Shown here: positions 14,581-63,152 of the stretch, piece after piece | How positions within the stretch are numbered: position 1 is the stretch's first letter | How the letters are laid out: the number at the start of each line of letters is the position of its first letter | Program-made: the position numbers and the translations under genes | The notes under the pieces: generated by a model | What the model saw: the letters and a program-made list of their open reading frames with translations, nothing else | Database searches by the model: none | Told to the model about the DNA's origin: nothing | Assembly: GCF_963676685.1 (NCBI RefSeq) | Contig: NC_092353.1 | Coordinates: 42,098,001 to 42,162,000 of the forward strand | Reading direction: 5' to 3' | DNA: 64,000 bases | From: Mytilus edulis | Taxonomy: Eukaryota

Positions 14581-15607
14581 TTTGTCATAGATTTTGTCAT
14601 GTGATTAGGAACTTTCCGATTGAATTTCCATTGGAGTTCAGTACTTTTGTGGTTTTACTTTTTAGAAACCCTAAATTAATACTAGCCCTTTGTTTTGAAT
14701 CAAAATAAATTATCAGTATTGCATTTTATTACATTAATGAGCTAACCTTGGACATAATCTATTATTTCCAAAGCTAACACGCATAATAGTTCCAGATATG
14801 GCACAAGTTTTGGCAGTACAAGGAGACGTAAGACATGGGTTTTCTTACAATTGCACTTTCAACCATGACTTCGCCCGAATAACTGGACTAGCAGCTTCAT
14901 CTAATGGCAATATCGTATTATGCGACCATAGCAACAAGACTCTTATTTTAGTTGACAATATTGGTAATTATATTACCAAGCTGAATGTAGACAGTGAGCC
15001 ATTCGATGTGGCTATTACAAGTCAAAATGTAGGATATATTACTCAACCCAATACCAGATCTGTATTGCAGATAGATCCAGAGAGGATGGTTGTTCTATCG
15101 AAAAACACATGAAACGATTTAAGGACTACCATGACATCTACAGTTAAGGGTTCGTGCTCACTTGTCGTAAATGAGATGGGGTTTTCCTACATATATGATT
15201 ATTTAAACATAAGGTTAGTCAATATCATTATACATTATCAAGATGGTTTGTTCTTAATTTGATAACACTTCAGATTTGTAACTTTATTCCTTTCCAATTC
15301 AGTTACGGGGAAGTAATTTTTAACTTTAAAATAGGATATTTCAAAATCTTCAGCAAAACGCAGGCTACAATATATTGAGAAACCACAGTTGATATGAAGT
15401 AAACATCACGAGTTCAAAAGTCATAAATCGAGATGAACAATTCGAAAAATTCTTTATAAAACTGTTGTTTGGAAAAAAAATACTAGTATTTTTTATTTGT
15501 GCATGAATTTTGATGTTGAATAACTAAGATCAATGTATGCGTGTCTAACCTTGAACTATAGTATGTAGCTTCAAGCTATGTAAACGTTTAAATAAAAAAA
15601 TGATTCT

Positions 15608-15828
15608 TTGATTGATTGATTGATAAGCACTATAATTGTGCTACTTCTTTGAGTTCATTTGTTATTACTGTGGGATGCTGGAGAGAACCAACCACCTTTG
15701 GTAAAATCCAAGTCAAGTTAGATTGGGTTGCGATCAACTTCTACATGCGAAACTTTATCTCACCACCTCAGTGTCAACAGACCAGTATTGCAATACACCA
15801 CTTAATCAACTCAACCACCAAGGGCCCT
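15608..15828 (-). mobile_element. tRNA-derived SINE, degenerate
   Basis: (TTGA)n tail on +; similar to the SINE at 16165-16408. Confidence 0.5.
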
Positions 15829-16164
15829 TTCGAATTGTAGACAAATTTTCACAAACAAGTTATTCTAGGTGCAAATGAATTTGGATCTTTGAACAACGTC
15901 ATTTTTAAAATGTAAGATTATGGTAAACAACCTAATATTCAATTGAAATAAAGCCCAAAAAATAAAACTCTTCTTTAGAGAAGTTAATAACAATGGCCAA
16001 GTTGCTATATTGGAATTGTTAATGTCTGCTTCTATGGCTTTTCTAACTTTAAGGTTAATGCATAATGAAGGTGTTTTAGTATTTAATTTCCTTGTTTATC
16101 ATCGAACTATAGTATGGATCTTCGAGATATTTATAAAAATAAATCAATTAAAAACTTATAGATT

Positions 16165-16408
16165 ACTTGATTGGTGATAAACGCAACTTTCAGTACTATG
16201 GTGCTATTTTTGTGGCGGCCAGTTTTTAGTGGTGGAGGAAGCCATAGATAACCAACGACCTTCGATAGGAAAACTGACAACATTGTCAACTAAGAGATTA
16301 CGAGTTGAGCTAGCATGCCTCCTTCGAGATTCGAACTCGCATCCTCAGTTTTGACATGTCAGTTATGCTATCATTCGACTTCTTAGACCATTCGGTTACC
16401 GGGGCTCC
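16165..16408 (-). mobile_element. tRNA-derived SINE
   Basis: Minus strand has an A-box-like GGTAACCGAATGGTCTAAG and a B-box GAGTTCGAATC, followed by a SINE core. Confidence 0.65.
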
Positions 16409-18458
16409 TTTAAATTAAAGACAAATTTACATAAAATAGTAGATTATGGCAGGTGGATATATATTTGGATCTTTTTATACATAAGAATGAAATCAATCGA
16501 AAAAACACATCCCTCAGAAAATGAAATACTGATCTCTGTTAAGCTTAATTTGAATTTCTGCCCACAGCACCAACAGTTTTTGTAAAAGAAAAAAAAAATC
16601 ATAAAATTTCTTCACGTCAGTTTGCAGCGCAGCAAATTATTCAAAATAGTTCATTGTAGTATAACAAACTTCTAGCGCTATTTTTCGATCGCTGATGAAA
16701 ATAAAAAAAGAAAAACATTTTCATGTGTAACGCAAATAGATATTCAAAACCACTGTACGATTGTGGTTTCCAAAAAAATAATATTAAATCAGTATACTTA
16801 CCTGCGAAAGCAATCAGTTGAACTTGTTACCTTTATTTTAATTAGTTTTGTGTTCGAGGTCACTGTTTTACCAAATTGCTCACTGTAACGGTCATTGATA
16901 TACTATTTTTTTTCTTTGTGATCTAATTTAAATTATTTCAGTGCCATTGGAGAAAATGTACCATACACAAGTAATAAAGGAGTTTGTATTGGTGCTGGTG
17001 TTGTGAAGACACATACAGTTGATGGACAAACTTATTTTTCTTGTACAGTTGGCACAAATGATATAATGGTCAGAAAGAAAGGAGTTCAAGGTCCTTTTTA
17101 TCGTCCTGAAAAAATTTCTAGCAGCGCAAAAACACCGACTGATATATGCTCTGATGATAATGGACACCTATACGTCAGTTGACAAGGTTCAAACAACATA
17201 CACAGACTTACACAGGCGGGAAAGGTGGTAGATATACCACTACATTCTCAACATGGAATAAAAGAACCAGTTGCTGTTTGCTTCAACCAAAACTATACAA
17301 ATTTATATATTGTCAATGAATGGGGGAAATCAGTTTTGGTCTTTAATGTTTATTGATGCTTGATTACAAAGACTTTTTATTAAACGTTCCAGTCGAAATA
17401 CATCATTGGATGTTCAATTGTTGTATTTTATAATTGCATATTAAACTAATTGTGCTCTTCACAAAAGTAATATGCTAATCTAATGTAAAGTACACAGCAT
17501 AAAGTATTGATGCGAAAACTAATTATTTATATTCTAATTAATGTTTGCTATATGTAACAAAATGATTTGTTAATCTAGTGATTGGCTTTTAATAAGGACT
17601 AACACCTATTTTCTTGTGCATTTAATTATATTTTGGTATATATTTGTTTTATATTGCTTTTGCACAAAATGTTTTGGAACAGATGAACTATTTACCTTTC
17701 ATTGGATATGTTTATTTCATAATTGGATTTTTTGCACATAATATTTAGTATGTGTTTATGATAATAATTTCAATAAAAATATGTCTCGATTTATTTCTTT
17801 ATTTTTTTACGGTTTAAGCAATCCTGATGAAAGTTTCTCAGAATAGTGAGCATCAAATGCACTATTTTATTGTTGTTCAGGATTTTTCAAATTGGATTTG
17901 AAGTTTCTGTCTTTTGTCATTGTAAACGATAGCCGAATTTGTTTTTCTGTCTTTACATTTATGTGATGTCTTGTTGATATATTTCTTGCTGATTTCTTGC
18001 TTTGTGATAAACACTTTATGTCGTGGTTGTAGCGGATTCAAGAATTACTTTCTATTCTGACTGGGAAAGAATAACATTTTTATATTTTCCCAGGTTGTTT
18101 AGTGGAGGTTTGTTGAGGTATAATTCTACATTTGAGCATTTCAATATATATTTCGATGTCCGTCTATATACTGCTACATGGTACTTCTTTTAATCGCACA
18201 ATAACACAAGATCATCCTTAAAAAGGGAGGCGAAACATTCCAAATAGCCGTTCAACCTTTTTCGCTATAAGCATTTTGTTATATCATTACGAGCGTTTCT
18301 GGCTTTTGATTTAAATAAGAGGCAAAAGTAGTTTTACCAATAATGACATCTCGTACATCATTTTCAATATGCAAGTAAAGTTCAGGAAATTATGTTGTGT
18401 GTGTGGATAAAATGATAATTTTCTGCTATGTGAAAATTGCATAGAACGGTAATTAAAT

Positions 18459-20302
18459 AGATATAGGAAGATGTGGTGTGAGTGCCAATGAGACAACTCT
18501 CCATCCAAATAACAATTAAAAAAAAGTAAACCATTATAGGTCAATGTACGGCCTTCAACAGGGAGCCGTGGCTCACACCGAATAACAAGCTATAAGGGGC
18601 CCCAAAATTACAAGTGTAAAACCATTCAAACGGGAAAACCTATCTAATCTATATAAGATTTTTAAAAAAAAAACGAGAAACGAGAAACAAGTATAAATTA
18701 CATAAACAAACGACAACTACTGTACATCAGATTTCTGACTTAGGACAGGTGCAAACATTTTCAGCGGGATTTAACGTGTTAATGGATCCAAACCTTCTCC
18801 CTTTTCCTGATACAATAGCATAACATCACAACATAGAAAAACACACGATAAAATATCAATTGGCAAGCTTAACTCTATCAAAAAACGTACATTAATACAC
18901 TATGAACGAATAAATTTGATCTGCGATATCTGAATGCAAATGTACAGTTAATAAAATATTAGGGACAAACATTCAAGGCCAAAAAGCAAACAAACAAGTC
19001 CAAACAAAGCCATGGCAAGACACCACTGCGAAATATTTAACCCTTCGAAAATATTTACTTTCGAAAAAAGACCGGTTTAAAAAAAATACAGGTAAATCTT
19101 GAAGTTTATACAAATGTGGTAAGAAGAAGTGTAACTTAGAAAATATTCCAAAAAATCAAAGCTGGTATATAGACAAGATCCATATAAATATAAAATAACA
19201 AAAAAAGCATTATAAACAGTATCAACAGGTCGAATTAACAAGAAAATACGATTTGAGAGTACTCGCAGTTACTGAAAGCTAGTTAAAAGCTAAAAACAAA
19301 TAATAATAAAAACAAATCATGCATCAGAGACTAATGACTGTTTTATCTATTAGACGAGTACATATTTATCTTTCAATGGTTATCACAAAATAGTCAACAC
19401 ATTTACTAAATTTTATAATCGTTATAAGGAAATCATTCGTAAATATAGCTCAACATGCAGACTTCTTATACGTTCAGGTATTTCACATCCAATATTTTAT
19501 GGAAATACTCTTTATAAAGCACAAAAATGTCAGTATTTACCTCAGAAGCTAACTTAACCTTTAAATGGACTTATTAAGAAGGGATATAGTTACGATACAG
19601 TTGTCAGGCCATTAAAGATTGCATAATTTGGCGTTAATATTGATTCACTTATAGGGTTTTTGCATCGGAACTAAACACATTTATTTAAAACCAGTTGTTG
19701 GTATGACACGGGTTATGTTCTTCTCATAAATGTTATGATGGTATGATACTAAACCCCTCACGAGAAGGATTGTGCCTGATATTCATATGATGAAGACATA
19801 ATCTTTCAATCAGTATAATTGAAGTCTGGATCTGGCATGTCAGTTAACTGCTAGTAGTCTGATGTTATTTATGTATTATTGTCATTTTGTATATATTTTT
19901 TGGTTACATCTTCTGACATCAGACTCGGACTTCTCTTGAACTGAATTTTAATGTGCGTGTTGTTATGCGTTTATTTTCTGCATTTGCTAGAGGTATAGGG
20001 GGAGGGTTTAAATCTCATAAACTTGTTTAACCCCGCCGCATTTTTGCGCCTGTCCCAAGTCAGTAGCTTCTGGCCTTTGTTAGTCTTGTATTATTTTTAC
20101 TTTTAGTTTCTTGTGTACAATTTGGAGTTTAGTTTGGCGTTCATTATCACTGAACAAGTATATATATTTGTTTAAGGACCAGCTGAAGGACGCCTCCGGA
20201 TGCGGGAATTTTTCTCTGCATTGAAGACCTTCTGCTGTTATCTTCTCTATGGTCGGGTTGTTGTCTCTTTGACACATTCCCCATTTCCATTCTCAATTTT
20301 AT
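18459..20302 (+). mobile_element. Internally deleted Penelope-like retroelement keeping both terminal modules and the ORF C-terminus
   Basis: ~19335-19673 encodes ...KFYNRYKEIIRKYSSTCRLLIRSGISHP...SLIGFLHRN*, the same C-terminus as the RT copy at 36403-37030. The 3' module is nearly identical to 37030-37667. Confidence 0.7.
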
Positions 20303-20940: not shown

Positions 20941-23032
20941 TAATAAAACTGTATAATAAATAATCAATGTGACCAGAGGATTTGCATCAACTTACGAAAT
21001 GGACTGCGCTTTTCAATCAGAAAACAACTAGACTAGAAAATTATATTTCGACAAAAAAATTGTAAGCACCAAGTTTTCTACTTAAATAGGGAAATTGGGA
21101 ATTTTTATTTTTTATATTATTTCGTTGTTAATATTGCTTGTGCAACAATGGTTCCCGAAGTAACATTGGATTGGAAGACACACTTTTTGCTATTAGGTTA
21201 ATTTAAATAATACGCTTTAACTAAAAGAATGTATGAAATAACTCTGGTTTTTTTTTAAAGTGTAAAATTATGCAAGACGTTCAAGATTATTGTAGTCTTA
21301 TTGATCATATTGATACTCAATCAGGAAAATGTAATCTACAGACTTTAGTGCAAAAATGATATATATAGATTAATTTTTCGAAGTTCAGTAAATAAACAAT
21401 AGTAATTTGGACAAAAAAATATACTGGCAAGAATATTACCAACAAATATGTTTTACAGACATAATTATATATGTAAACTACATCTCATAGTATGTGACTT
21501 ACAAATTTAACAGTACAATTTAAGATTTTAACATGTCGAGACAATACATATTAATGTTTATCTAAGTTAATGAACGTGTTATACCAGCTAGCATTGCAAT
21601 CCAGATGATGATGATACTAGATACCAAAACATTGTGTCTTTCATTCATCGTTTAATTTGAAATTTTATAAATGTAAAATACAGCCCTCCATAAACACCGA
21701 TTTTGTTATCATCAAGGAAGTAATTTATAAAACAACACACCCACAAAACAAAAACGTAGGTAAGTTATAAATCAACCAGTATTTTTAAAAAAGCAACGAA
21801 AATAAAACACTCCAATTGTTTAAGAAGTTGTGGTATTAGCAAAATTTCATTAAATTTAATGATATAATTATATGTTTTTGAAAATACCGATTACGCTGAT
21901 TAATAACAAAAAACGAAACTGTTTTAACCACTATGAATATAACGCCTTTTTCAAGTTAGTATTCAATCATCTATATTCACCTGATTCAGCATTGTTTAGT
22001 AATTCGAGAGAATATTATGAAATATTTAAAGTTATGGGACTCATGAATACATTTAATACCTGAATCGTACAAAACAACGATTTTGACCGTACTTTTCACC
22101 TAGCTACTTTGTTGAGAGATTCCTGCTATAAGTATCATCTTAAAATAAATTCCTTATAAAAACTGATCATAACTAGTAGACGATTTATAATCCGTTTGGC
22201 ATAACTAATAGAAGAAATATTTGTCATCTCTAATTGAAGAAAAAAAATGCAATGATTATAACTAATAATTGAAAGAAAATCACTTGGTCATGTCTAATAC
22301 AAGAAACTTACAGAGGTCAAACAATTTCAAAAAATAATTTTTCCCAAAAGAATGAGCTACTTGCAGATAATACAAACCAATCAATTGCTTTTGCGTATTA
22401 TTCATTTCTTATTCGATTGTCGTTGTTTATTGTCTTTTCGTAAGCTGATATGGGTGTCTTCTACTATCTTGGATTGTTAAAAAAAACCAGAGAACCTAAG
22501 GTCCAGATGTTCTATGAAGTTAGCAAAATTAATTGCAGGAATGCAGATATTTAATGTGAATTTTCATTTAAAAGAACCAGTTTATGAGAATAAAACTTAT
22601 CAATTTTAATAGTATTACATGTGTAGATTATTTTTGGTTGTTTTTTAATGTTTTTTAATTGGCATTTTAAGGGGAGGTCACTCTTAAACAGTGCATTTTT
22701 TGAAGGAATCTGCATGGAATTTTTCTATTTTGTATTTTAGCCGGAAAAAACGTACGGTGACCCTTTCTTTTCTTTTGATTTTCTGAAAGCTTTGTCTTTT
22801 CCTTATTTAGTTTACAGTTCTATCAGTTTGTTTAGTTTCTAATCACAAAACATGCAAAATGGGTGTTTTCCCTGTATAATCCATACAAAAAGTGTCATTT
22901 TGTCACAACCTGTAGTTTGAGAAAATGCGCGGTGACAGTATCATTTTTATTATATTTTTGAACATATACCAATAGATACTACGTTTTGGCAAGGTATGAA
23001 CAAATTCTATCTTTTTTATTTAAGACTCCTAT

Positions 23033-23365
23033 TGTTGTGAACTTACGTATTTATAGAACAAACGGCATAGGCGGATCCAGGGGGGGGGTCTGGGGGCCCA
23101 GACCCCCCCCCCTTTCGTGGAAAAATTTGGTTGAGTATATATTTAGAACCTGATACGGAGATCAGTAAAATAATACAGTGTGTAAAATGTATGCTGTTTA
23201 CCTTTTATAAAATATATATCAAGTCAAATATCAATCTTCTTATTCTTCGAGGTGTATATCAACTTCAATCTTCTGGGTGGAAGTTGACGTCAACAATGGG
23301 AATTTTCAAGTGAAAGTACGGGAATAAATATAATGTTACGTCGTGTAAATTGTACTTTCACAACA
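23033..23365 (-). repeat. 3' LTR (333 bp; ~270 bp replaced by a MITE-end fragment at 23066-23133; TATA region deleted)
   Basis: Direct repeat of 29008-29556 apart from the CATAGGCGGATCCAGGGGG... segment and a ~20-bp deletion near 23270. Confidence 0.9.
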
Positions 23366-23383
23366 CTGCCCCCCCCCCTTTTC
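23366..23383 (-). other. Polypurine tract
   Basis: Minus strand GAAAAGGGGGGGGGGCAG immediately precedes the 3' LTR TG. Confidence 0.85.
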
Positions 23384-23625
23384 AAAAAATCATTTCGCCC
23401 TCGAAATTAAAACATTACCTATATGTACCTTATTTACAGTAAAAAAAAAACATCAACAATAACGACATGAAAAATAAACAATATGCAAAATTTCTAAATT
23501 TCAAAAATCACCTCTTCTATAAATGCATATTCATAACAATTAAAACATAGCAATATCAACACATTTAAATCATAAAGCAATCAATCATCAACATATAAAT
23601 ATATATTGTTCAAACATTGTCAAAT

Positions 23626-24275
23626 TTATTTATACAGTTTATCAACAGGTGACTTGTACGGAAAGTACACCACACTTTTTATCTTCCTATTTTCTTTTCC
23701 CAGTCTTCTCTTCTTCTGTGGCGATGGTTTGGTTATGTCCTCTTCTGGCTGTCTCTTCATGGCAAGGACCTTGGCCTTCCAAAATGTTGCTTCCTCTCTA
23801 AGTTTCAATACTTCTTTTCTTTGATCCTTTAGTTGTTTCTATAATCTTCCATGTTAAATTTTGTATCAGTTTGAGTCTCTGCATCTGTGGTTTTAATTGG
23901 TGTTTCTGTGTTTGTAATAATTTCAACAACTTCTTCTTGCACATCAATGACGATCCCGGGATAGTTGATGGCAAGATCTTCTGTACCCTGATTACCACAT
24001 GTAACATTATAAGGAGCAGTGTTCTTCTTAAAAAATGTATTGTCTTGACTATCTTGAACATCAGCTGCTAATTTTGCATGTAGTTTATATTTTGTTACAT
24101 GGTTCTCCAAACGGTTTAAACTGTTACATTTGAAATGGCATATGGTACAAAAATAAGGACAGTGATTATAAGTTGTGTGATTAAATTGAACATGCCAGAT
24201 GGCTTCTTTTAATGATTTCATCTCATCTCCACATTTCCTACAGTTAAAGGTCGCTTGGTCATTCTCATCTTCCAT
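23626..24275 (-). pseudogene. Retrotransposon ORF3: double C2H2-like zinc-finger / coiled-coil / NLS-like protein (~215 aa; one frameshift near 23835)
   Basis: CRKC-x12-HVQFNH and CTIC-x12-HVTKYKLH. A pyrimidine-rich tract plus CAG sits directly before the ATG at 24275. Adding one A near 23835 joins it to ...RKQLKDQRKEVLKLREEATFWKAKV...PSPQKKRRL...KIKSVVYF...*. Confidence 0.75.
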
Positions 24276-24369
24276 CTGCAATAAACAGAAAACAAAACAC
24301 ATGGTAAGTATCGGTTACTATGGAAAATGTTGAACAAGTAAATCAGCTACATGGACAAAAACTGTTTCT

Positions 24370-25421
24370 TTACTTTTTTAACCCAGGATGGAAAAACAGA
24401 AGATTCATATGCTCTAAGGTTATCAAAATGGATATTAAAACTTTTTCTGGAATCTCTGATTTGATATTAACTACAGGACTAAGTTGTTTAATAACTACAA
24501 ATGGACCACTCCATGGACTTTTAAGCTTTTTAAAAAATGGTTTCTTCCTAAATACATGAGATCCAACTAAAAATGGTTTATCAATTATTCTCGTATCATG
24601 GTCTCGTTTTTGCTTTTCCCCTGACTGTTTAAGATTTTCTCGAGCTACATGGTATATATCTTCCATATGAACTCTCAAATCATCAACGTATACATTTACA
24701 GGTTTCTGGGCATTATGACGGGGTAATGGATATAGTAACTCATGGGGTAGGTTCACTTCTCGTCCTAACATTAATTTATTTGGACTAAAACCAGTAGAGG
24801 GATGAACAGTACTTCTGTATGCACTCATTAATATTGGAATATAGAAATCCCATTTTCTTTTGTTTTCATCTACATACGATTTAACATTTTTCCTAATGTT
24901 TGGTTAAATTTTTCAATTAGGCCATTAGATGATGGGTGAAAAAAGGTTGATTTCGTTTTATGGATATCAAGGAGCCTACACAATTCTTGGAATAAATTGC
25001 TTTGAAAATTAGTCCCTTGATCAGTATGGATTTCAAGCGGAATTCCGAATCTAGAAACGAACTCATTAACAAGTTTCTCGGCAACGATATGGGAATATTG
25101 GTTAGGCAATGGATAGGCTTCCATCCATCTGGTAAAGTGATCACCGATCACTAATATAAACCGATTGCCAGTTTTGGATTTGGGAAATGGTCCCATGACA
25201 TCCAACGCTACTCTGTCCATTGGATATCCAACATGATAATATTGCAAAGCTGCATGGTTATTATTGATTGTTTTCCGAAGTTTACAACATGATGGACACT
25301 GTCTGATATGTTGCTTTATATCTTCCCTCATTCTGTACCAATGAAAATGTTCCTTTATTTTCATTGTTGTTTTCTTGATGCCAAAATGAGCAGAAAATAT
25401 AGAATCATGGCACAGCGTCAA
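24370..25421 (-). pseudogene. pol: Gypsy integrase (HHCC zinc domain, DDE core, C-terminal part), frameshifted
   Basis: CHDSIFSAHFG...CPSC; ALDVMGP; IHTDQGTNF; HPSSNGLIEK; AYRSTVHPSTGFSP. Confidence 0.93.
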
Positions 25422-25433
25422 TATTTCAGACCT

Positions 25434-27125
25434 TTAAATCTCAGGAACCAACAACTGCATTTTTGGTACATCAGTAGGGTTGTTTGGAACTAATCTTTGG
25501 TACAATACATCATCCATACTTATAATATTATTCCAGTTAAGCCAATGTTTCCTTGTGGCAGGACTAAATCTAGTAACCTGTGCTCTTGTTGTTGGTTCTT
25601 TTGACTCCTTCCATGTAAATAAAGGGCCAATATCATTGTCTTTCCTCTGCAGTTCTTTCATTTCAGAAGCAGTATACTTCTGTAACCAGTTGGCAGGTTT
25701 TCTTGCTTGTTTAGTACTGTTTCGTGTTACTGCACGAATTGATTCATTAGTTCTTCCAATGTCTTTGATATTGTCTACTTTATCATGGAACTCAGTCCAG
25801 TCATCTGTTTTGTCTTCGTGTACCGGAAAAGAATCAAAGTCTTTTCTTGACAGTGCATCGGCATTGGTGTGTTTTATTCCAACTCTATGTTGAATGTCAA
25901 AATTGTATTGTGACAAAACTTCGTGCCATCTGGCTAACTGGCCTTGGGGATCTTTAATATTGAACAGCCATCTTAGTGAACTGTGGTCAGTTCGTAGTAA
26001 AAACTTGTTCCCTAGGAGAAAATGTCTAAACTGATGGACAAATGTGATTACTGCCAGAAGTTCTCTCCTCGTGACATTATAACGTTGCTGTGCTTTATTT
26101 AATTTCTTTGAACCAAAGGCAATGGCTTTTTCTTGTCCATCTTGCACTTGTGACAAAACTGCTCCTATGCCTACATTAGATGCATCTGTATCCAAAATGA
26201 ATGGTAACTGTGGATTTGGATATGCTAAGACTGGTGTTGACATTAAAGCATTCTTTAGTTTGGTGAAAGCTGTTTCACAATCTTTTGTCCATACGAACTT
26301 GACATTTTTTCCTGTGAGCTGAGTCAGCGGTGATGCAATTTCACTAAAATGTAAAATAAAGCGCCTATAGTAGTTGCAAAGACTAAGAAATTGTTGAACT
26401 TCTTTGACATTTTCGGGAATCTTCCAACTTGAAATAGATTCTGAAATTTTTGGATTCGGTTTTATTCCATCTTGACCAACAATATGACCCAGATACAGTA
26501 CTTCTGGTTTCAAAAGGTCACATTTAGAAGGTTTCAATTTCAGTCCAACCTCTCTAAGTCTATTTAAAACTTCGTCTAATTGTTTGAAGTGGTCTTCTAA
26601 ATTGGAGCTGAATATAATGATGTCATCTAAATATATTAAAAGTGTTTTCCATTGAAGTCCAGTAAATACTAATTCCATGCATCTTTGAAAAGTACTCGGA
26701 GCATTACATAAACCAAAAGGCATCTTGGTGCATTCAAACAGTCCATATTTTATTGTAAATGCTGTTTTCTCGCGGTCGTTTTCATTCAGCTCTATCTGCC
26801 AATATCCACTTTGAAGGTCAAAACAGGAAAATATCTCTGCAGATGACAGACAGTCAAGGCACATATCGATTCTTGGCAATGGATACGCGTCCTTTATGGT
26901 CAAATCATTTACTTTCCTATAGTCAACACACTACCTGACAGAACCATCCTTCTTACGGACTAAAACCACAGGTGATGACCAAGCAGATGAAGATGGTCTA
27001 ACGACTCCAGTTTCTATTTGGTCTCTCAAATATTTTTCTTCCTCCTTTTCGAAAGCTTGTGGTGTCCTTCGTAAAGGTTGGCGGGCTGGTGCTGCATGTG
27101 CTGTGTCTATTCTGTGTTCAAGCAC
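25434..27125 (-). pseudogene. pol: Gypsy reverse transcriptase and RNase H
   Basis: SAWSSPVVLVRKKDGSVR; DAYPLPRID; MPFGLCNAPSTFQR; YLDD; DTDASNVGIGAVL; RELLA; TDH; NADALSR. One stop near 26931. Confidence 0.96.
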
Positions 27126-27153
27126 TGAACAAGATCCAAGTTCTGTTTTCGAT

Positions 27154-29000: not shown

Positions 29001-29007
29001 GACCAGT

Positions 29008-31229: not shown

Positions 31230-33137
31230 ATGGCACAAATGTTGGCAGTTCCAGGCCCTAATAGACATGGGTTTTCTTTTAATTGTTCTTTCAACCATGA
31301 TTTCGGACGAATTACTAGCATAGCAGCTTTAACAAAGGGGAACATTTTAGTATGTGACTACGACAAAAAGCGTCTTATATTATTCAATCCAGTTGGAAAT
31401 TATCTCCAAAAGCTTGATGTAGACAGTGAACCATATGATGTGGCTATTACTCACCAAAATATCGGATATGTTACCCAACCTAACATCAAATCTGCATTAA
31501 AAATAGATTCGGAAAGAATGGTTATATTATTGAAAGTAACCTGCTGCAATATAAATACAAACATCTTGAGTGTGTCCGCAGCTGTTAACACTAATCAGAA
31601 TTATACGTGTTATCTTTCCATGAATACAAACGGAATTACCACTATACATGGCATCCGTTCAAATATGCTGTAANNNNNNNNNNNNNNNNNNNNNNNNNNN
31701 NNNNNNNNNNNNNNNNNNNNNNNNNNNNNNNNNNNNNNNNNNNNNNNNNNNNNNNNNNNNNNNNNNNNNNNNNNNNNNNNNNNNNNNNNNNNNNNNNNNN
31801 NNNNNNNNNNNNNNNNNNNNNNNNNNNNNNNNNNNNNNNNNNNNNNNNNNNGAAAACATTATTGACATTTATTCTTATGTTTCTTTATTATACCAACTTG
31901 TAAGCGTATTGATAACATAAAATTAGAAAATATTGTTTTACGAGTCTGTAAAGTTCACAAGGACGAACAGCGACCTCGAGCGAATATAACAAAACCAATG
32001 CATTTATTATTCTCTACACATTTTAATGCATAACTAGAACTTTGTACTTGTTTTGGCTTTATAACCATTTTGATATTAGCGTCACTGATGAGTCTTATGT
32101 AGACGAAACGCGTGTCTGGCGTACTAAATTATAATCCTGGTACCTTTGATAACTATCTACACCACTGGGTCGATGCCACTGCTGGTTGACGTTTCGTCGC
32201 CGAGGGTATAACCAGCCATTAGTCAACACTTCGAGGTTGACATGAATATCAATAATGTGTTCCTATTAATAAAATTCCTGTTTATAAAACTTTGAATTTT
32301 CTGAACAACTAAGGAGTTTCTTATCCCAGTATCATATCAAGTTACTAGATACCTTTTCGTCAATTAAGTATGGTCAATAAGCGCGGTTTTTTTTACTTGA
32401 CTTTACTACTCAATATTAATCTGTTAATAAATTAGTGATTTCTCACGTCCTGAATATTTCATGAACTCGAAAATATGATTGATTTGTTATATAGTGGGGA
32501 AAAGTGTGGGTTTTCATTTTAGTTATATGGTGCATATTCACTTGTATCAATTAAGTATGATATATATAGGACCTTTCTACGCTGTAGTGAATAGATCGGG
32601 TAACTTATCATTATCTTAATGTAAAACAAATAAATTCAATATTATTTTTTTTTATTTAGAAGGATTGAGTGAAATATTTCATGCTCTATTTAAGTTCTCA
32701 TTGGATTTCTCTTCACTTATTACAGAAACCTCGAACCAACTAATAATGATATAGTATCAACGTATACCGAAGAAGTTGGTGTTGTAAAGTTCCATACAAC
32801 AAATGATTATCTATTTTCCTGCAGAGCCGGCCAAAACAACATCTTTGTTGGTTTCTTGTGGCCAAATTATAAGGAAATGTGTAGCATTGCCACCTTTGAT
32901 ATACCTACCGACATTTGTTCGGATGACTATGGCCACATATACGTCAGTGGACAGGGTTCAAACAACATTCACAGATTGCAAAAGACAATCAGTCCTCCAT
33001 TCACTGTCTTAGACATACCACTTCATTCTCAGCATGGAATAAAAGAACCAGTCGCCATGTGCTTCAACAGAACTTATACTAAATTATATATTGTCAATGA
33101 ATGGGGGAAATCAGTATTGGTCTTTGATGTTTGTTAA
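31230..33137 (+). CDS. NHL/six-bladed beta-propeller protein copy 2, intact (exons 31230-31669 and 32726-33137; 283 aa)
   Basis: Phase-2 donor CT|GTAA at 31670 and acceptor TACAG at 32725 give a stop-free frame. NHL-like blades RITSIAALTKGNILVCD, EPYDVAIT, PTDICSDDYGHIYVSG, PVAMCFN...LYIVNE. The intron contains an assembly gap. Confidence 0.85.
31674..31851. other. Assembly gap (N run)
   Basis: Run of N. Confidence 1.
32079..32122 (+). ncRNA. Minimal type I hammerhead ribozyme (family A retrozyme copy ~32036-32330)
   Basis: GCGTCA-CTGATGA-GTCT(TATGT)AGAC-GAAA-C(GCGT)GTC^-TGGCGT: complete core, stems I and II, short stem III, GUC cleavage triplet. Confidence 0.85.
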
Positions 33138-54995: not shown

Positions 54996-55094
54996 AGATT
55001 ATTGTTGATCATCTCAACGAGATTGATTTTCTCACTTTCGCTGTAACAGCTCAAGTGAGAAAATCAATCTCGTTGAGATGATCAACGATAATCT
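54996..55094. repeat. Near-perfect 42-bp-arm inverted repeat at the end of an interspersed element (~54632-55097)
   Basis: AGATTATTGTTGATCATCTCAACGAGATTGATTTTCTCACTT-15-nt loop-AAGTGAGAAAATCAATCTCGTTGAGATGATCAACGATAATCT; one mismatch. Confidence 0.9.
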
Positions 55095-55112
55095 ATAATT
55101 ATAACAAAAAAA

Positions 55113-55931
55113 CAAGGAAGGGATAAATAGTTATAAAATAAACAAATAACAAAGAACTTTGATCATTAGATTTGTTTACAAGAGTCACTTCCTTCGGATT
55201 TTATTGTATGGAAGAGTAACACGTAATGTGAAGTGAAAGTCGATGAAGCAGTAACAAAAAACAATATACAATGTTTAGAACAAATCAATACAACAATTCA
55301 AATAGTGAATATAAATATATCTCGGACGATGTGTAACATGTCGATTAGTTGTAGTTAACGTTTTACATATATATATATATTAATCTTTTCGGCAAAAATT
55401 ACGTAAACTGATGCACTCCAAAATAATTTCGTAATATACAGTGAGTGCCAGAATATAATGAATGGTGTAAAATGTATATATTCATTGAATATATTATATA
55501 ATGTCTAAAAATAGCAACAATCAAGGAAGGGATAAATAGTTATAAAATAAACAACTAACAACGAACTTTGATCATTAGATATGTTTACAAGAGTCACATC
55601 CTTCGATTCTTATTGTATGGAAGAGTAACACGTAATGTGAAGTGAAAGTCGATGAAGCAGTAACAAAAAAAGATAAATATGTCTAGAAAAAATCAATACA
55701 ACAATTCAAATAGTGAATATAAATATATCTCGGACGATGTGTAAAATGTCGATTAGTTTTAATTAAAGTTTTACATAATATATTAATCTTTTCGGCAAAA
55801 ATTACATTAACTGATGCACTCCAAAATGATTTCGTGATATACATTGAGTGCCAGAATATAATAAATGGTGTATAATGTATATATTCATTGATTATAATAT
55901 ATAATGTCTAAAAATAGCAACAATTAAGGAA
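55113..55931. repeat. Tandem duplication of ~409 bp (2 copies)
   Basis: CAAGGAAGGGATAAATAGTTATAAA starts at 55113 and 55522; the copies are colinear. Confidence 0.92.
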
Positions 55932-58900
55932 TATAATATATGCAATAGAAAATATGGTTTCACAAATTCTTGTTGATGGTATATTTTACGGGCCTTATTA
56001 CTTTCGTATTTCCCTTAGACACGATAAAGGCTCGGCGGATATAGGATTTTTATGTAATCTATAATCTTACGCGTATTCCGTTACAATGAGGTTAAATATT
56101 TTATAGAGATCTATCGAAAGTCCTCTTTAAAACAGTTGATCGGATGTTGATAGATTAATACAGCTTTAATTACAAAAGGTATTGTCAAGATAGTTATGTT
56201 AATTATATCAGCTTATCACATCTTCGTGTGTAATCAACTATTTTGTTTCTTAATAATTACAAATTAACAAACGAAAGATGAATGCGTCTATCTCTTTTCA
56301 ATCACAGTATAGCTGCATAACAACATGACAATGAGCACCTAAAGGTATTATTCACATTATGTAAATGCTTTCCTTTGTGCATTGTTACAAACAAAAATAC
56401 AAAAAGGGGTATGCCAAAAATACATGATACATGAGATATAGTTGAGTAATGAGTTAATAAACATGAAATGGCAGGTTTCATATATTTTGCTAACCAACAA
56501 AAAATTTACTATCAATATTGGACATTTAAAACTTCTAAACCGTGTATTGAAATAAGAATTTTGAATTCGTTTGAAGAGGGGCCAAAATTGCCTTTATTGG
56601 CTATATATTCTTTTTTTCGACCTGAAAACTATTTTGTGTCGTAAAACTTTTCTGTTGTCTTGCTAATTTACTCTTATTGATATTTTTTGAGGGAGGGGGA
56701 TTTTAGCGATCTGTCATGTTAAACAAAACATCACAAAAGAAAAAAATATAACATCTAAATATAGGTATTGGATCCATATTCTAACGATCTAAGAAATTTG
56801 TACTATGAGACACCGATACATTGTTGTTCACTGTTTCAAAAGATGGCCAAGAACTGTTTAAAACAAATTATGTAAATTGGGAAATTAACAAGATGTGCTT
56901 GGCCAAATTGCTTATTGTTTCATATTTGTATATATGTAATGCTAATGCACCATGCATTTAAGAGAAAATTAAGTGCAAATTCATATAAAAAGTATGTTAT
57001 GCCAGTCATATTCGGGAATTGAATTAGCCTATAAACAATGACTAGTTGTGTGGCTACCATTCATACAACACCGATCTCTTACAATATAATTGTTACAATA
57101 AACATAGCATCACATTATGATTCCATATTTTCAGCCCGTTCCATTAACTTAAAGTTATAATTCTGCCTGTATGTCATTCGAAGCAAAATCGTAAAAGACG
57201 GTTAGATAAACGAAATATTGCTCACTGCATTCAGATGAATTAAGTGTTAGAACAGTCTCAATTTTATTTTTATGTTGCAGAATAATATACAACTGGCATC
57301 ACCCATTCTCTCATATACAATTATGATTTCAAGTTGCAATGACATGTGCCTTTATTGAGGGTGGTGAAGGGCTATTTTCGTGCAGCGTGCTTTGCCATTT
57401 TTATTTCACTTGTAGCCGTGAAAAAGGTTCGTTATTCACCGTGTTTCGTGGAAATGGTTAAAAGAAGATAAACGTGCAAGATTTTTTGAATTTTTTGTTC
57501 ATCGTGAAATAATATATATTAATAAACATGTACATGGTGTAAGGAACTATAAATGTAGATAAAGAAAAATACATTTGTAACAATTTCTTAATATAAGGTG
57601 CACATTACATTTCTACATAAACGACAATCTATAACGTATTTCGGTATACAATTCGTTTGTAGTACAGAATGTATTATCAATATTACATTACAAACAAAAT
57701 ATCATGATTAATAAAGTATATTTTGAAAAAGATATATTAAAGTTACGAAAACATTATAAATATATATGGTGTCAAATTTTGCACGTTACACACGACACAT
57801 TATTGAGGTTTAGTTGACTCACTTCTAATGAAGCATGATCACTATAATTCAATCGATGTATGTTTCTTTTTTTAACCAAACAATATAAAAAGGCTACATG
57901 AATGTAAAATGTACAGCCGGATCATCAAGAACAAATCCTAAATTGTATATCTATTAAACCTTTATGATTGCATCGTATGATTTTATGTCATTGAAAGGCT
58001 TCCATAAAAACTGATGCGTAAATGTAATAAGGAAGTTAAAAGTTCGATCTGTCGTTGGCCTTTAATTCCACAATCCTACGTCCTATGGTTTCTGGTGGAT
58101 CATTGGCAATCATACCACATCTTCTCATTTTAAAGCAGTTATAAACAGTGGTATAGTTTGTTTTTAACAAAAGAACAAAAGAAAGGTAATGCATTTACTA
58201 TGATCTGATTCATGTTTTGTTCAATTAACATTAAACTTGTAATTAAGACATCAACTATATTTATGAAATCAAATCATGCAAAGTTTAGACTACAATTGAG
58301 TGCCAATAGTTATAAAAAGTTTAGTACACATAAGGGAACGTCCACTTAACTTACAGGGGGGTATTGTCTTGTGGTATTTTTCTTTAAAATATTCTGATGC
58401 CCATTCGATAAAAGAAGATATTCTGTTTGAGCAGATGACCAGAAAGATATATTGAATCTAGATTTTACCCATAGCTTATAGTCCTAAATTTTGAAGCAAA
58501 ATAATTTAAATGATAGCGTTAAAAACAAAATAAAGTTGGTCATCAAAATTTTTAAAAAAAATTGTTATAAATTGAATTAAGCCGATCGGAAAGTTCTATC
58601 ATGGTCTATGGTCGGGGGGTTGTTTGTCTCTTTGACACATTCCCCATTTCCATTCTCAATTTGATCATATACAAGATTATTATAAGTCGCAATGATCATC
58701 TAATGCAATACATTTTTTGCGAAGTTAGTGTTTTATATGCCTTTTTAATGTCCCATTTGTATTTTTCGCTTCATTTCTTAATTATTTTATGTTGAAATAC
58801 ATAATTTTATCAAGATATTCGAACGTGTGCCATGCGTAAATAAGGGATTGATGACTCATCATCTGATAATTTCTTCATTAGGCTCTATTGAAACAGGGAG

Positions 58901-59552
58901 ACAAGTAAATGATACAATTAAAATAAAACAAATACTGAACTCCGAGAAAAAATAAAAAAAGGAAGACACTTATCATATGGCACAATCAAAAACTCAAACA
59001 CATCAAACGAACGGATAACAACTGTCATATTCCTTGCTTGATACTGGCATTTTCCTATGTAGAAAAAAAATTATTTAACCTAGATAGACCTCTGTGACTT
59101 ATATGACAGTCGCATCAAGTTCCATTATATTGACAACGATATTTGAACAAAACAAACAGACATATTAGGTAAAAATATTAAATATAGGGATACAGCAGTC
59201 AACATTTTGTTGTAATCTGAATCACAAATATGTAACTAAGAATCTAAAAATGTCATATAGACCAAACATGTTAGCAAAATTTAAAGACAAGCGAACACAA
59301 TGTTTTACAATAGCACAATAACAGGATGTAAAAGTACACAGCCACGTCATATGTATCAAAGAAACACGAAAGGCATATAAACAAAGCACATTATCAAAAA
59401 CGAGTAACCTGGATACGAGAGTTATCATAGAACGGGATGTGCATTTCACTATTCATAAAGACAAATAAAATAATAGTATAACCCGTTATTAAGATGACAA
59501 CAGTATAAAACATTATTAATAGTTATCAAATGTACCAGGATTGTAATTTAGT

Positions 59553-59596
59553 ACGCCAGACGCGCGTTTCGTCTACGTAAGACTCATCAGTGACGC
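59553..59596 (-). ncRNA. Minimal type I hammerhead ribozyme (family A copy 59518-59850)
   Basis: Minus strand GCGTCA-CTGATGA-GTCT(TACGT)AGAC-GAAA-CGCGCGTC^-TGGCGT. The element sits in a ~27-bp TATTAAGATGACAACAGTAT minisatellite. Confidence 0.88.
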
Positions 59597-60191
59597 TCTT
59601 ATCAAAATATTTATAAAGCCAAACATGTACAAAGTTGAAGAGCATTGATGATCCAAAATTCCAAAAAGTTGTGCCAAATTTGGCTAAAGTAATTTATGCA
59701 TGGGATAAGAAATTCCTTTGTTTTTCGAAAAATTCAAAGTTTTGTTAACAGGAAATTTATAAAAATGACCACATTATTGATATTCATGTCAACACCGAAG
59801 TGTTGACTACTGGGCTGGTGATACCCTCGGGGACGAAACGTCCACCAGCATATTAAGATGACAACAGTATGAAACGTTATTATGATGACAACAGTATAAC
59901 ACGTTATTAAGATGACAACAGTATTAAGATGATCACCGCCTAAAAGATTAGTTGTGGATAAAAACTGTTCTAATATATTATGTGTTATATATATTAGATT
60001 AGTTCCTTATCGAATGTTCTGATGGAATATCATTAAATAGACAAATAAAAGTAGGTGCAATAAATTGCATCTTTACAGTTTCCTAGACTCAAGAACATAG
60101 TGTTTGTTTAATGTTTCAACAGTCGCCATTTTACCGTACGACAACGAATGAATATAATTAGTTATCAAAGGTACCAGGATTATAATTCAGT

Positions 60192-60235
60192 ACGCCACAC
60201 GCGCGTTTCGTCTACATACGACTCATCAGTGACGC
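60192..60235 (-). ncRNA. Family A hammerhead with GUG at the cleavage triplet (probably inactive)
   Basis: Minus strand ...CTGATGA-GTCGTATGTAGAC-GAAA-CGCGCGTG-TGGCGT. Confidence 0.7.
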
Positions 60236-60465
60236 TCATATCAATATATAAATGAGTTTATCTGACACACAACTGTGCGCCAAATTTACCAAGGAAATGT
60301 CTACTGAATGCATTTAAGAAAATACCCAATCACTTATCTTTCAATCATGCAAAAAGTTACAGGATAAAAGATTGTAATTTTGATTGATAGATAAACATTC
60401 TGTAATTTCTATTCCTCTTCTTTTTTTTATTATTTTGCTACTAGTTTCAATATTCAAGTGGGATT

Positions 60466-60872
60466 GTCAGAGAACACAGTTATTTCGTAGCATTTTTTTT
60501 AGACAATAAATGATAATAAAAAAAATGCCACTTGCGCTTTCTGAATAATATTTCTACAGTGCATTGTACTACTTTTGGGACAAATTATATCAAAATTATA
60601 AAACACTTCTAGCTCAAAATATGGACAATTTCATGTTAAGGAGTCTTGAAATCTTTTTACAGCTTCCGAACTGCTAATTTTCAACCTTTTTCACCTGGAC
60701 CAAATCACCTACTTTAAAATTCATGACCCTAATTTCATCCCCTACTTGCTATCTGAGGCTTTAAACATGAAGAACTGAATTTAAAAGGGGTAAGTAACAT
60801 ACTGCCCACACTAGGGACAATATTCGTGGACAACAAAAAACAAAGGACGATAACTGTGTTCCTGGACCAGAT
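60466..60872. mobile_element. MITE-like element; a partial second copy lies at 62358-62583 in the copy 4 intron
   Basis: Imperfect TIR (GAACACAGTTAT / ATAACTGTGTTC); the 3' half is repeated at 62358-62583. Confidence 0.55.
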
Positions 60873-61024
60873 AAAATATTTCTTTTGCAATTGGAAGTTT
60901 AATTTGAAAATTCTTCCGATTATTGTTTTTTTTTTCCTTTAACTATCATTAGCATTTTTTTTTTTTTATTATTTTACTTAATAATACATTCGTTATTTGT
61001 AAAATATTTTTTCCAGAATATCTG

Positions 61025-63102
61025 ATGGCACAAGTGTTGGCGGTACCTGGAGAAATCAGACATGGATTTTCGTTCTACCACTCTATCAACCATGACTTCG
61101 GCAGAATTACTGGGATAGCAGCCACAGCAAAGGGAAACGTTTTATTATGTGACTTTGATAAAAAGAATCTGATTCTAGTTGATCCTCTTGGAAGTTATCT
61201 CAACAAGATTAACGTTGACAGCGAACCATATGATGTGGCTATTACAGGTGAAAATGTTGGCTACATAACCCAACCTTCCACCAGATCTGTATTACAGATT
61301 GACCCGGATAGAATGATTATAGTTTTGAAAACATCAATCAACGATTTAGGCGCTACCGTGATGTGTTCTACAGCATTCTCGACTTCTTTATGTTTTCTAT
61401 GCTTCAATCTTGAAGGAAAATCGTATGCATATCAAGCGTATGACAATGCCATGTAAGTCGTTTAATGCTATGTATGACGTTCTATATCTGATTTTCTGCC
61501 TCTTTATATCACCAAGTCATTATACTGTACACATTGCCCTCACTTTGTATAAATTAAAAGAATCAGACGAAAAAAAAAATCTACATGCATCACGATGATT
61601 TGTCTTATAGTATCTATCAATCACATTCACTGTCATAATTTACATACAATTCTTAATGTGTACATCACCTGAACATGCGGAATGTGTTGAATAGGCCAGG
61701 ATGAAAAACATCAGCAGTAATATATAGAAGTAATGATTAAACAATATACGAATACGTTATAGATAATAAATGAATTTGGTATTCTTAATTTGACAAAAAT
61801 ATACATAATTATCCACATATTTAACCGGTAAAATCGTTCTTATTCAAGGACATTCAAAAAATATTCAACGAGTGAATCATGAACTATTTATCCGTATATA
61901 TATATATTAAAAGAGAAAAGAGAAAAGGCAAGCAACATAGCTTAAAACACAAACATTTTTTTTTCAATGCGAACCCTTACCGAATAATAAATTGTTTTTT
62001 GTTCTAATTATGCATAAGAAACATATTTCAATGTTTGTCACTGTTGTTTTTTAATAATATTTGAATAAAATTGTCCACCATGTTTTGTGTACAGCGATAA
62101 AAAAAAGAATTATGCCATCACGACACAGCTTAATAACAGATCTAGATTTGAACTCTAAAACGTAAAAGATTAAATATACATTTCCTGTAAATTGATAAAT
62201 AATTGTCGATACATATTCATACCTTAAAACTTTATTGTATGATTTCCTTCTAATCACAAGAGTTTATTTGGTATATAAAATCAAAACATCAACCAATTGA
62301 TATTTTCAATCTCTAAACATACAACTATCCGCTTTAATTGTTACCCCTGAAAAGAAGCTGGACAAAATCATTACTTTACTTTAAAATTCATCACCCGATA
62401 TTTTTCACAGTGTAATTCCATCACCCTACTTGCTATTTGGGGCATTAAACATGAAGAAACAAATTTGAAAGAGATATAAAAAAGAAAGGCAAAAAAACTC
62501 TCTCCACATTAGGGACTACACTCACTCATGGACAACGAAACGGACAACAAAAATCAAAGAATGATAACTTGTTCCCGGACCAGTTGATGTCAAACAGATA
62601 TTTGATTCAACATTTTAGTTCTAAAACATCTCTGGAATAACGGGTCTAATGCTTATTTCTAAATTTTCATATTTGATAAATAAATAATTTCAGAAGCTTT
62701 CCAAACATATCTGGATATAAAAACTGGCACATTGGTCCTCATATTATAAAGTGCCATGCAGTTGATGGGAGGACATGTTTTTCCTGTCATGTAGGTCACA
62801 ACTATATCACAGAAAGCAAAATGACCTTCCCGATTTTCATGACAAGACAGCAGAATATAAGTATTGCCACCATCGATACACCAACTGACATATGCTCTGA
62901 TAATTATGGGCACCTCTACGTCAGTGGACAAGGTTCAAACAACATACACAGACTGACACAGGAGGGAAAGGTCATAGATATACCCTTACATTCACAGCAT
63001 GGAATAACACAGCCAGTTGCCGTATGTTTTAACCAAAACTATAGTAAATTATATATTGTCAACGAATGGGGGAAATCAGTGTTCATCTTTAATGTTTATT
63101 GA
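61025..63102 (+). CDS. NHL/six-bladed beta-propeller protein copy 4, intact (exons 61025-61452 and 62694-63102; 278 aa)
   Basis: Phase-2 donor AT|GTAAGT at 61453 and acceptor TTTCAG at 62693 give a continuous stop-free frame joining the two track ORFs. NHL-like blades as in copy 2. Confidence 0.9.
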
Positions 63103-63152
63103 TGATTTATAACAGTACATGTTGATTTTTGTATTTTATGATTTCCTATTAA

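What the first reader, a model, noticed from the sequence alone, without database searches (positions are those of the whole stretch)
14798..63102. Tandem family of stand-alone beta-propellers with constant outer blades and a hypervariable centre
Seen: four paralogs share the phase-2 intron and are highly similar over the first ~100 aa (MAQVLA...HGF...FGRITG...EPYDVAIT...QIDP) and the last ~75 aa (PTDICSD...SGQGSNNIHRL...NEWGKSV). The ~100 aa spanning the intron are barely alignable and vary in length; only anchors such as VVKxH and FSC remain. Two of four copies are disabled. Established: bivalves have large expanded TRIM-NHL-like families, and birth-and-death arrays are typical of recognition genes. 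Inference: a diversifying ligand-recognition (immune-type) repertoire in which two blades act as the variable region. The genes have no RING/B-box in view and no signal peptide.
Basis: partly seen in the sequence, partly recalled or inferred. Interest (0 to 1): 0.72.

Follow-up and report, generated by a model that had tools for sequence, protein, structure and literature searches.

The report
Mussel propeller family with variable sector
Mussels carry a clustered family of small cytoplasmic six-bladed propeller proteins in which four blades stay nearly constant while two neighbouring blades and their loops differ strongly between copies, a layout that suits a set of binding proteins with different targets, although selection for that diversity and an immune role are not shown.

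Summary
Confirmed: exactly four co-oriented paralogues, each with two coding exons split by an intron at the same position; copies 1 and 3 are broken, 2 and 4 intact. Copy 4 is spliced as predicted, with a further upstream exon. They belong to a mussel family (88 of 109 hits carry a name, all Mytilus) of 270-305 aa stand-alone NHL six-bladed propellers (pLDDT 86-90; TRIM71 NHL Z 27). No B-box, fused form or signal peptide was found.

Blades 1, 2, 5, 6 and the central top pocket are under purifying selection (omega 0.15-0.17, dS about 1), so recent conversion does not explain the constant flanks. Blades 3-4 evolve about 3-6 times faster. Length-variable loops (3a-b, 4c-d, 5c-d hairpin) lie on the bottom face, and the 3d-4a loop on the top rim. 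Implied omega in the fastest loops is about 1 (0.4-1.9), so relaxed constraint is not excluded and positive selection is not shown.

Best reading: a birth-and-death family of intracellular adaptors with a constant docking face and paralogue-specific binding sector, derived from the known mollusc B-box/NHL expansion (1,410 six-bladed propeller genes in M. galloprovincialis). The immune role is inferred only.

The parts
14798..15213 (+). Copy 1, coding exon A (blades 1-3); in-frame stop at 15110-15112; acceptor AG 2 nt before ATG
   Evidence: lineage relatives P0201, P0216, P0037, P0043
16942..17356 (+). Copy 1, coding exon B (blades 3d-6); in-frame stop at 17180-17182; pseudogene in this haplotype
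31230..31669 (+). Copy 2, coding exon A, open; variable part 31521-31669; donor abuts N gap 31674-31851
   Evidence: nearest relative P0028
32726..33137 (+). Copy 2, coding exon B, open; variable part about 32726-32885; 4-residue insertion in blade-5 c-d loop
42838..43281 (+). Copy 3, coding exon A; stop at 42946-42948, small in-frame deletions, frameshift near 43264
   Evidence: relatives P0031, P0212
51991..52455 (+). Copy 3, coding exon B (after an 8.7 kb intron); compensating frameshift near 52050; long blade-5 c-d insertion; pseudogene
61017..61452 (+). Copy 4, exon A (acceptor AG at 61015-61016, ATG at 61025), open; variable part 61316-61452 (blade 2d-3)
   Evidence: contigs of runs X15, X16, X17 begin at 61015-61017 with unmatched upstream letters
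62694..63102 (+). Copy 4, coding exon B, open; variable part 62694-62868 (blade 3d-4), fastest stretch about 62809-62862 (4c-4d hairpin)
   Evidence: contig 18 of X17 joins 61452 to 62694

Best explanation
A mytilid subfamily of stand-alone, cytoplasmic NHL six-bladed propellers, derived from the mollusc B-box/NHL (TRIM-like) radiation by loss of the N-terminal modules, and evolving by tandem duplication and pseudogenisation. Shown or computed: fold, gene structure, splicing of copy 4, purifying selection on blades 5-6-1-2, on the N-terminal 12 residues and on the central top pocket, and 3-6 times faster change with many in-frame indels in blades 3-4 and three bottom loops. Inferred: the constant surface docks on one partner shared by all copies, while the blade 3-4 sector and the 4c-d and 5c-d hairpins form a second, paralogue-specific binding surface. 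Each gene would then be an adaptor coupling a different intracellular target to a common effector. Least certain step: the targets are non-self (pathogen or symbiont) molecules. The confidence given is for 'the variable sector is a functional specificity surface'; the immune step alone I put at about 0.35.
For: Fold: 24 strands in six blades, pLDDT 85.8 and 90.0; best matches TRIM71, LIN-41, TRIM2 and Brat NHL, Z 25.6-27.3. Nearest Atlas models are mollusc B-box/NHL proteins, TM 0.75-0.79. Flank omega 0.15-0.17 (profile range 0.10-0.25) at dS 0.95-1.03; c2-c4 centre dS 1.09, omega 1.07 (0.5-2.2). Relative site rates over 44 proteins: blades 1, 2, 5, 6 at 1.0-1.2, blade 3 at 2.7, blade 4 at 5.7; 15 of 18 central top-ring positions at or below 1.3. 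Bottom loops of blade 2 are conserved (0.7) while those of blade 4 are at 10.2, so this is not a generic loop effect. The 5c-d insertion of long members is modelled as an ordered 14+14 residue hairpin. Each window copy has its own lineage with relatives in other Mytilus species, so distinct centres have been kept across speciation. A separate clade of 6 unnamed proteins repeats the pattern: 89% identity in residues 1-97 against 46% and 41% in two central windows. Six-bladed propeller genes are enriched among dispensable mussel genes, in the same table as C1q and AIG1 (PMC7653742 Table S52).
Against: No test gave omega clearly above 1. In 13 close pairs the implied omega was 0.95 (0.55-1.78) for residues 180-197, 0.86 (0.36-1.95) for the 5c-d loop, 0.50 for 128-157 and 0.27 for the rest of the centre. 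The two pairs with c1 were saturated or uninformative (centre omega 0.39 and undefined). In NHL proteins the documented main binding site is the top surface (PMC4015489), which is the conserved part here. PMC9634614 speculates that variable blade-connecting loops, including 3-4, are not directly involved in binding. The allele signal is weak: one allele had 7 differences in 247 exon-B letters against 6 in 666 intron letters (p 0.05; p 0.18 with all non-coding pieces), another had 0 in 149. Raw RNA reads of X24 (6% of the run, another species label) gave essentially no depth on copy 4 exons. There is no expression, ligand or challenge evidence.
Confidence: 0.5

Rival explanations
1. Relaxed constraint: all function lies in the conserved top pocket, N-terminal tail and blades 5-6-1-2. 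Blades 3-4 only close the ring and drift near neutrally, and the copies differ in expression or dosage rather than in target.
For: Implied omega of the fastest loops centres on about 1, not above. The fastest sites are outer strands and bottom loops with indels. Core positions of blades 3-4 stay conserved.
Against: Equivalent loops of blades 1, 2 and 6 are not relaxed. Distinct centres persist as lineages across species. Tips of the 4c-d loop fall in the top rate class (about 16 times the flanks, alignment-sensitive). A long ordered hairpin is kept in one clade.
Confidence: 0.33
2. RNA-binding regulators like Brat or LIN-41/TRIM71: the conserved top face binds RNA and the variable rim tunes the motif recognised.
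For: Closest folds are TRIM71, LIN-41 and Brat NHL domains. R27, K47 and R227 are invariant and K160, K268 nearly so. The top ring is conserved.
Against: Identity to these domains is only 9-13%. The ring also holds conserved acidic residues E67, D70 and D206. There is no coiled coil or RING.
Confidence: 0.08
3. The contrast is an artefact of gene conversion homogenising the flanks while the centre shows the true age of the copies.
For: The c1-c4 C-terminal part has lower synonymous divergence than the N-terminal part (dS 0.62 against 1.29; p 0.02). Three local exon A/exon B tree conflicts exist.
Against: Flank dS is about 1 in all three pairs and flank omega 0.15-0.17; centre dS equals flank dS in the intact pair. 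11 strongly supported splits are shared by both exon trees.
Confidence: 0.04
4. Metal-dependent propeller enzymes (SMP-30/gluconolactonase or PAL type) with a conserved central site and variable substrate lid.
For: Weak SGL profile matches in 13 of 35 members; lactonases and PAL at Z 22-24; conserved D70, K160, H162 and D206 near the axis.
Against: The slots that carry the metal ligands in those enzymes (recalled; position after the blade Pro) are T, Y/F, variable, V, T, V. NHL domains rank higher.
Confidence: 0.03
5. These are only the last exons of longer TRIM-like genes whose RING/B-box exons lie upstream.
For: Every ATG is preceded by a splice acceptor, and transcript contigs carry unmatched upstream letters (81-82 nt in X15 and X17, 472 nt in X16). 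The upstream exon was not located.
Against: 34 of 35 aligned proteins from five species start at this Met and one 3 residues before. The search of 539-2000 aa proteins gave 1 hit among 5,446 candidates, a tandem double propeller (the tool calls absence weak evidence). No B-box/RING pattern occurs in the window.
Confidence: 0.02

Closest known systems
TRIM-NHL proteins (TRIM2/3/71, LIN-41, Brat, Mei-P26, Thin)
   Same: Six-bladed NHL propeller closed by an N-terminal strand in blade 6 (Z 24.7-27.3; profile hits to TRIM2/3 NHL at E about 1e-13); cytoplasmic; conserved top face.
   Different: No RING, B-box, coiled coil or filamin domain; 9-13% identity; multi-copy tandem family with pseudogenes; variation concentrated in blades 3-4 and bottom hairpins.
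[quoted passage not shown]
   Same: Nearest predicted structures are mollusc B-box-NHL clusters (TM 0.75-0.79); some members are auto-named TRIM2_3. The domain class has 1,410 genes and is enriched among dispensable genes (PMC7653742 Table S52).
   Different: Stand-alone 270-305 aa form with a nearly invariant N-terminal tail and a constant/variable layout. The paper gives only a domain count; whether these genes are in that count was not checked.
Bivalve C1qDC and FReD recognition families
   Same: Expanded families prone to presence-absence variation (PMC7653742, passages seen); tandem arrays with pseudogenes (own knowledge).
   Different: Those are secreted and have functional data (recalled); these have no signal peptide and no ligand evidence.
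Coral tachylectin-2-like propeller (PMC2880987)
   Same: Invertebrate propeller with high amino-acid diversity, read as immune (abstract seen).
   Different: Tachylectin fold, not NHL; positive selection was reported there from 244 alleles and is not shown here.

Membership tests
NHL six-bladed beta-propeller | Six four-stranded blades, structural match to NHL domains | tested here: met
   24 strands; pTM 0.86, 0.88; top Z 27.3, rmsd 2.6 over 246 residues
NHL six-bladed beta-propeller | NHL repeat sequence signature (PF01436) | tested here: met
   25 of 35 members at E <= 0.01; P0004 scores 24.6 bits against cut-off 20. Single exons of the window stay under the cut-off.
TRIM-NHL E3 ligases | RING, B-box and coiled coil N-terminal to the NHL domain | tested here: not met
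   Proteins begin at the propeller; no fused form among longer proteins; no pattern in the window. The 5' exon sequence itself was not seen.
RNA-binding NHL (Brat, LIN-41/TRIM71) | Electropositive top surface that binds RNA | not testable with these tools
   Model coordinates were not returned; conserved top-ring residues are mixed basic and acidic.
SMP-30/gluconolactonase and PAL propeller enzymes | Metal-ligand residues after the blade proline (positions recalled, register inferred) | tested here: inconclusive
   Slots hold T29, Y/F69, variable 113, V159, T205, V249, which argues against; no residue-level structural alignment was available.
Diversified immune recognition families | Multi-copy tandem family with pseudogenes and a localised variable region | tested here: met
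Diversified immune recognition families | Positive selection (omega > 1) on the variable surface | tested here: inconclusive
   omega 1.07 (0.5-2.2) for c2-c4; implied 0.95 (0.55-1.78) in close pairs
Diversified immune recognition families | Binding of non-self ligand; expression in haemocytes or barrier tissue; induction | not testable with these tools
   Runs are coded and without tissue labels.
Secreted pattern-recognition proteins | Signal peptide | tested here: not met
   No hydrophobic N-terminal stretch (best 9-residue hydropathy 1.1-1.4 in c2, c4, P0010). This is a hydropathy scan, not SignalP.

The most novel reading that the evidence does not exclude
A germ-line, intracellular, antibody-like repertoire built on an NHL propeller: a constant half signals through one effector, CDR-like loops and hairpins on blades 3-5 are under diversifying selection against pathogen proteins, and the intron between blades 3 and 4 lets recombination reassort the two variable modules between close copies. 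The three local exon-tree conflicts and copy 1, which differs from P0201 at 1 of 97 N-terminal residues but 19 of 58 in blade 4, fit this; chimaeric gene models could also cause such conflicts.
Probability: 0.18. Interest if true: 0.8.

Novelty: new variant of a known kind. Interest (0 to 1): 0.46.

Why it matters
Mussels have over a thousand six-bladed propeller genes with no assigned role, enriched in the dispensable genome. This subfamily is small, single-domain and cleanly split into constant and variable parts, so it offers a direct test of what that expansion is for (codon models, blade swaps, pull-downs). If the variable sector proves to be a selected binding surface, it would be a cytoplasmic recognition scaffold for bivalve immunity that uses the side and bottom of an NHL propeller rather than the usual top pocket. 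If it proves neutral, it is an ordinary birth-and-death array.

Tried and rejected
No whole genome is held for this window, so copy number and synteny beyond it rest on protein records.

Two metagenome scans found no relative (43 and 134 pattern matches, none confirmed). The prokaryote genome scan gave one 15-residue match (L001, E 7e-4), treated as a generic NHL blade. So no orthologue DNA was available for codon models.

The 1.84-billion-protein search with exon B listed mostly long multi-repeat proteins and added little.

Homodimer prediction gave no verdict (score 0.00); it is not evidence either way.

Run search: no RNA holder listed on record.

The upstream exon was not found by cross-copy similarity nor among the listed pieces in 56000-64000 (6,905 pieces not shown).

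A paratope-like composition test of the loops was discarded: the pattern captured flanking conserved residues, and the Trp excess in 5c-d partly reflects a conserved base residue.

NG86 values for the centre are saturated and alignment-dependent and were not used as proof.

Literature searches with no paper on this family: Mytilus+NHL+beta-propeller 0; Mytilus+NHL repeat 1, an oyster larval study; Mytilus+presence-absence variation+tripartite motif 2, off topic; mussel+dispensable genes+NHL 0; six-bladed beta-propeller+bivalve 4, off topic by listing; TRIM+NHL+expansion+oyster+mussel 1; NHL domain+pattern recognition+invertebrate+positive selection 0; Mytilus/B-box/beta-propeller/immune, 3 of 4 terms, 62 papers, 15 listed; tripartite motif+mussel+NHL+gene family 0. 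The library is open-access only.

Earlier scan notes: none similar by sequence or place; the 8 of 18 shown by words read as prokaryotic and do not bear on this.
Full report
OBSERVATION. The window is AT-rich eukaryotic DNA (GC about 32%). Motif scans and a family profile find four co-oriented copies and no more. Each has two coding exons with the intron at the same place. Copies 2 (283 aa) and 4 (278 aa) are open; copy 1 has two stops, and copy 3 has a stop and two compensating frameshifts. Over the six pairs, identity is 58-69% in residues 1-97, 21-36% in the centre and 65-83% in the C-terminal part (the out-of-frame stretch of copy 3 was left out).

GENE STRUCTURE AND EXPRESSION. All four ATGs have an AG acceptor 2-12 nt upstream. 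Contig 18 of run X17 (library type a guess, 'RNA?') joins 61452 to 62694, exactly the predicted intron, and carries 81 further letters upstream of 61015. X15 shows the same exon edges at depth about 45-52 against about 6 in the intron. So copy 4 is transcribed and spliced in at least one individual and has a 5' exon that I could not place. Raw RNA reads of X24 (6% of the run, other species label) gave essentially no depth on the exons. The 5' exon is most likely non-coding: 34 of 35 aligned full-length relatives begin at the same Met, and a search of longer proteins gave only a tandem double propeller (1 of 5,446 candidates).

FAMILY. Exon A of copy 4 found 48 proteins among 400 candidates, all Mytilus. 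A profile of 35 of these (13 fused, truncated or odd-ended models dropped) found 109 among 1,893 candidates: 88 named, all from five Mytilus species, and 21 unnamed. The search needs exact shared words, so the range is a lower bound; the Atlas lists similar 269-282 aa mollusc NHL clusters. Members share a scaffold length within assemblies (7 on one M. edulis scaffold, 5 on one of M. trossulus, 4 on one of M. californianus), which fits one main cluster. Each window copy has its own lineage with relatives in other species: c4 with P0004/P0198, c2 with P0028, c1 with P0201/P0216/P0037/P0043, c3 with P0031/P0212 (74% identity). Six unnamed proteins form a separate clade (support 1.0) that shows the same pattern: 89% identity in 1-97, 46% in 98-113, 82% in 114-127 and 41% in 128-149.

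FOLD. AlphaFold2 models of P0004 (the c4 relative, 91% identical over exon A) and P0010 (long form) are six-bladed propellers, pLDDT 85.8 and 90.0. The spliced window proteins themselves were not folded. Best structural matches are TRIM71, LIN-41, TRIM2 and Brat NHL domains (Z 27.3-25.6, 11-12% identity). Pfam NHL matches 25 of 35 members. The nearest Atlas models are mollusc B-box/NHL proteins, so descent from that radiation with loss of the N-terminal modules is the simplest origin (inference).

WHERE THE VARIATION LIES. Coordinates were not returned, so faces were assigned from strand order with the definition in PMC4015489 (b-c and d-a loops top, a-b and c-d loops bottom; passages seen). 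Site rates over 44 proteins (6 of 50 dropped as near-duplicates, odd C-termini or pseudogene), relative to the flanks: blades 1, 2, 5, 6 at 1.0-1.2, blade 3 at 2.7, blade 4 at 5.7. The fastest parts are the 4c-d hairpin (bottom), the 3d-4a loop (top rim), 4a-b, 3b-c/3c and 5c-d. Length varies in 3a-b (4-17), 3c to 4a (20-35), 4c-d (10-23) and 5c-d (5-27), and hardly elsewhere. In long members 5c-d is an ordered hairpin of two 14-residue strands. The central top ring is conserved at 15 of 18 positions (register in blades 3-4 inferred from motifs). The intron falls at the end of blade 3, between the two variable modules.

SELECTION. Pairwise codon ML on c1, c2 and c4 gives flank dS 0.95-1.03 and omega 0.15-0.17 (range 0.10-0.25). 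The flanks are thus old at silent sites and held by purifying selection, not by recent conversion. For the intact pair c2-c4 the centre has dS 1.09 and omega 1.07 (0.5-2.2). The two pairs with c1 are saturated (0.39 and undefined). Scaling amino-acid rates by the flank omega in 13 close pairs gives 0.95 (0.55-1.78) for residues 180-197, 0.86 (0.36-1.95) for 5c-d, 0.50 (0.29-0.94) for 128-157 and 0.27 for the rest; these windows were chosen after seeing the family entropy. The centre/flank tree-length ratio is 5.0 over the whole family but lower in close pairs, which fits bursts after duplication or misalignment at depth. One allele of c4 has 7 differences in the first 196 letters of exon B against 5 in the other 687 letters of its exonic pieces (p 0.007); against introns p is 0.05-0.18, and another allele has none in 149 letters. 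In sum: near-neutral or faster, with positive selection neither shown nor excluded.

RECOMBINATION. Exon A and exon B trees of 45 proteins share 11 strongly supported splits (of 18 and 21) and conflict locally in three places. Copy 1 differs from P0201 at 1 of 97 N-terminal residues, 19 of 58 in the exon B centre and 9 of 75 in the C-flank (N against C flank p 0.003). Its C-terminal part is closer to c4 at silent sites than its N-terminal part (p 0.02). Local conversion or exon exchange therefore occurs on top of selection; chimaeric annotations may cause some conflicts.

MECHANISM. Most likely each protein is a cytoplasmic two-sided adaptor: a constant face for a partner common to all copies and a paralogue-specific sector on blades 3-4 with bottom hairpins (0.5). 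That propellers use both faces for different partners is stated for Brat. Non-self targets are an inference from birth-and-death dynamics and from the enrichment of six-bladed propeller genes (1,410 in the genome) among dispensable genes (PMC7653742, rows of Table S52 and main-text passages seen; two supplementary files were searched as text, and the data-notes file may not have been among them). The main rival is relaxed constraint on a scaffold sector (0.33), helped by PMC9634614, which speculates that variable blade-connecting loops of TRIM NHL domains do not bind ligand (passages seen). RNA binding (0.08), conversion artefact (0.04), enzyme (0.03) and hidden TRIM exons (0.02) are minor.

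NOVELTY. The fold and the mollusc expansion are known. In ten searches of an open-access library I found no description of this stand-alone subfamily or of its constant/variable layout. PMC8382680 lists a B-box orthogroup as expanded in bivalves but has no occurrence of NHL or propeller (passages). PMC2880987 was seen as abstract and outline only. Verdict: new variant of a known kind, real and testable, function unproven; interest 0.46.

Noticed in passing
window 23032-29556, - strand: Broken Ty3/Gypsy-type LTR retrotransposon between copies 1 and 2: zinc knuckle, protease, RT, RNase H and integrase in several frames, with terminal repeats about 23032-23365 and 29007-29556 at 88% identity.
   Followed up: partly
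window 43874-44963: 3.1 tandem copies of a 351-bp unit at 99% identity inside the 8.7 kb intron of copy 3, so a very recent expansion.
   Followed up: no
window 19426-20301 and 36783-37668: An 889-bp repeat at 90% identity, next to a 143-codon open frame at 36394-36822 that looks by eye like a retroelement reverse-transcriptase piece but had no Pfam hit.
   Followed up: partly
residues 1-12 of every copy (e.g. window 61025-61060): The N-terminal tail is nearly invariant, also in the distant unnamed clade, though poorly ordered in the models. It aligns with a strand-c/turn segment of TRIM2, so it may be a spare strand or docking motif.
   Followed up: partly
P0004 and P0198: Two M. galloprovincialis models with consecutive accessions are identical up to blade 5 and have different last 47 residues: alternative 3' ends or an annotation chimaera.
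   Followed up: no
window 61017, run X16 contig 12: 472 unmatched letters upstream of the exon A acceptor, joined 2 letters later than in X15 and X17 and running on into the intron: possibly a different first exon on a partly spliced RNA, or a genomic variant.
   Followed up: no
P0041: One annotated member carries a C-terminal C-type lectin domain; the propeller lacks its ends, so probably a gene-model fusion.
   Followed up: no
window 17669-17777 and 63872-63985: The 3' flanks of copies 1 and 4 still align (76% over 115 letters), in line with later exchange between their 3' ends.
   Followed up: partly
window 55088-55931: Direct tandem repeat of about 410 bp at 91% identity upstream of copy 4.
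   Followed up: no
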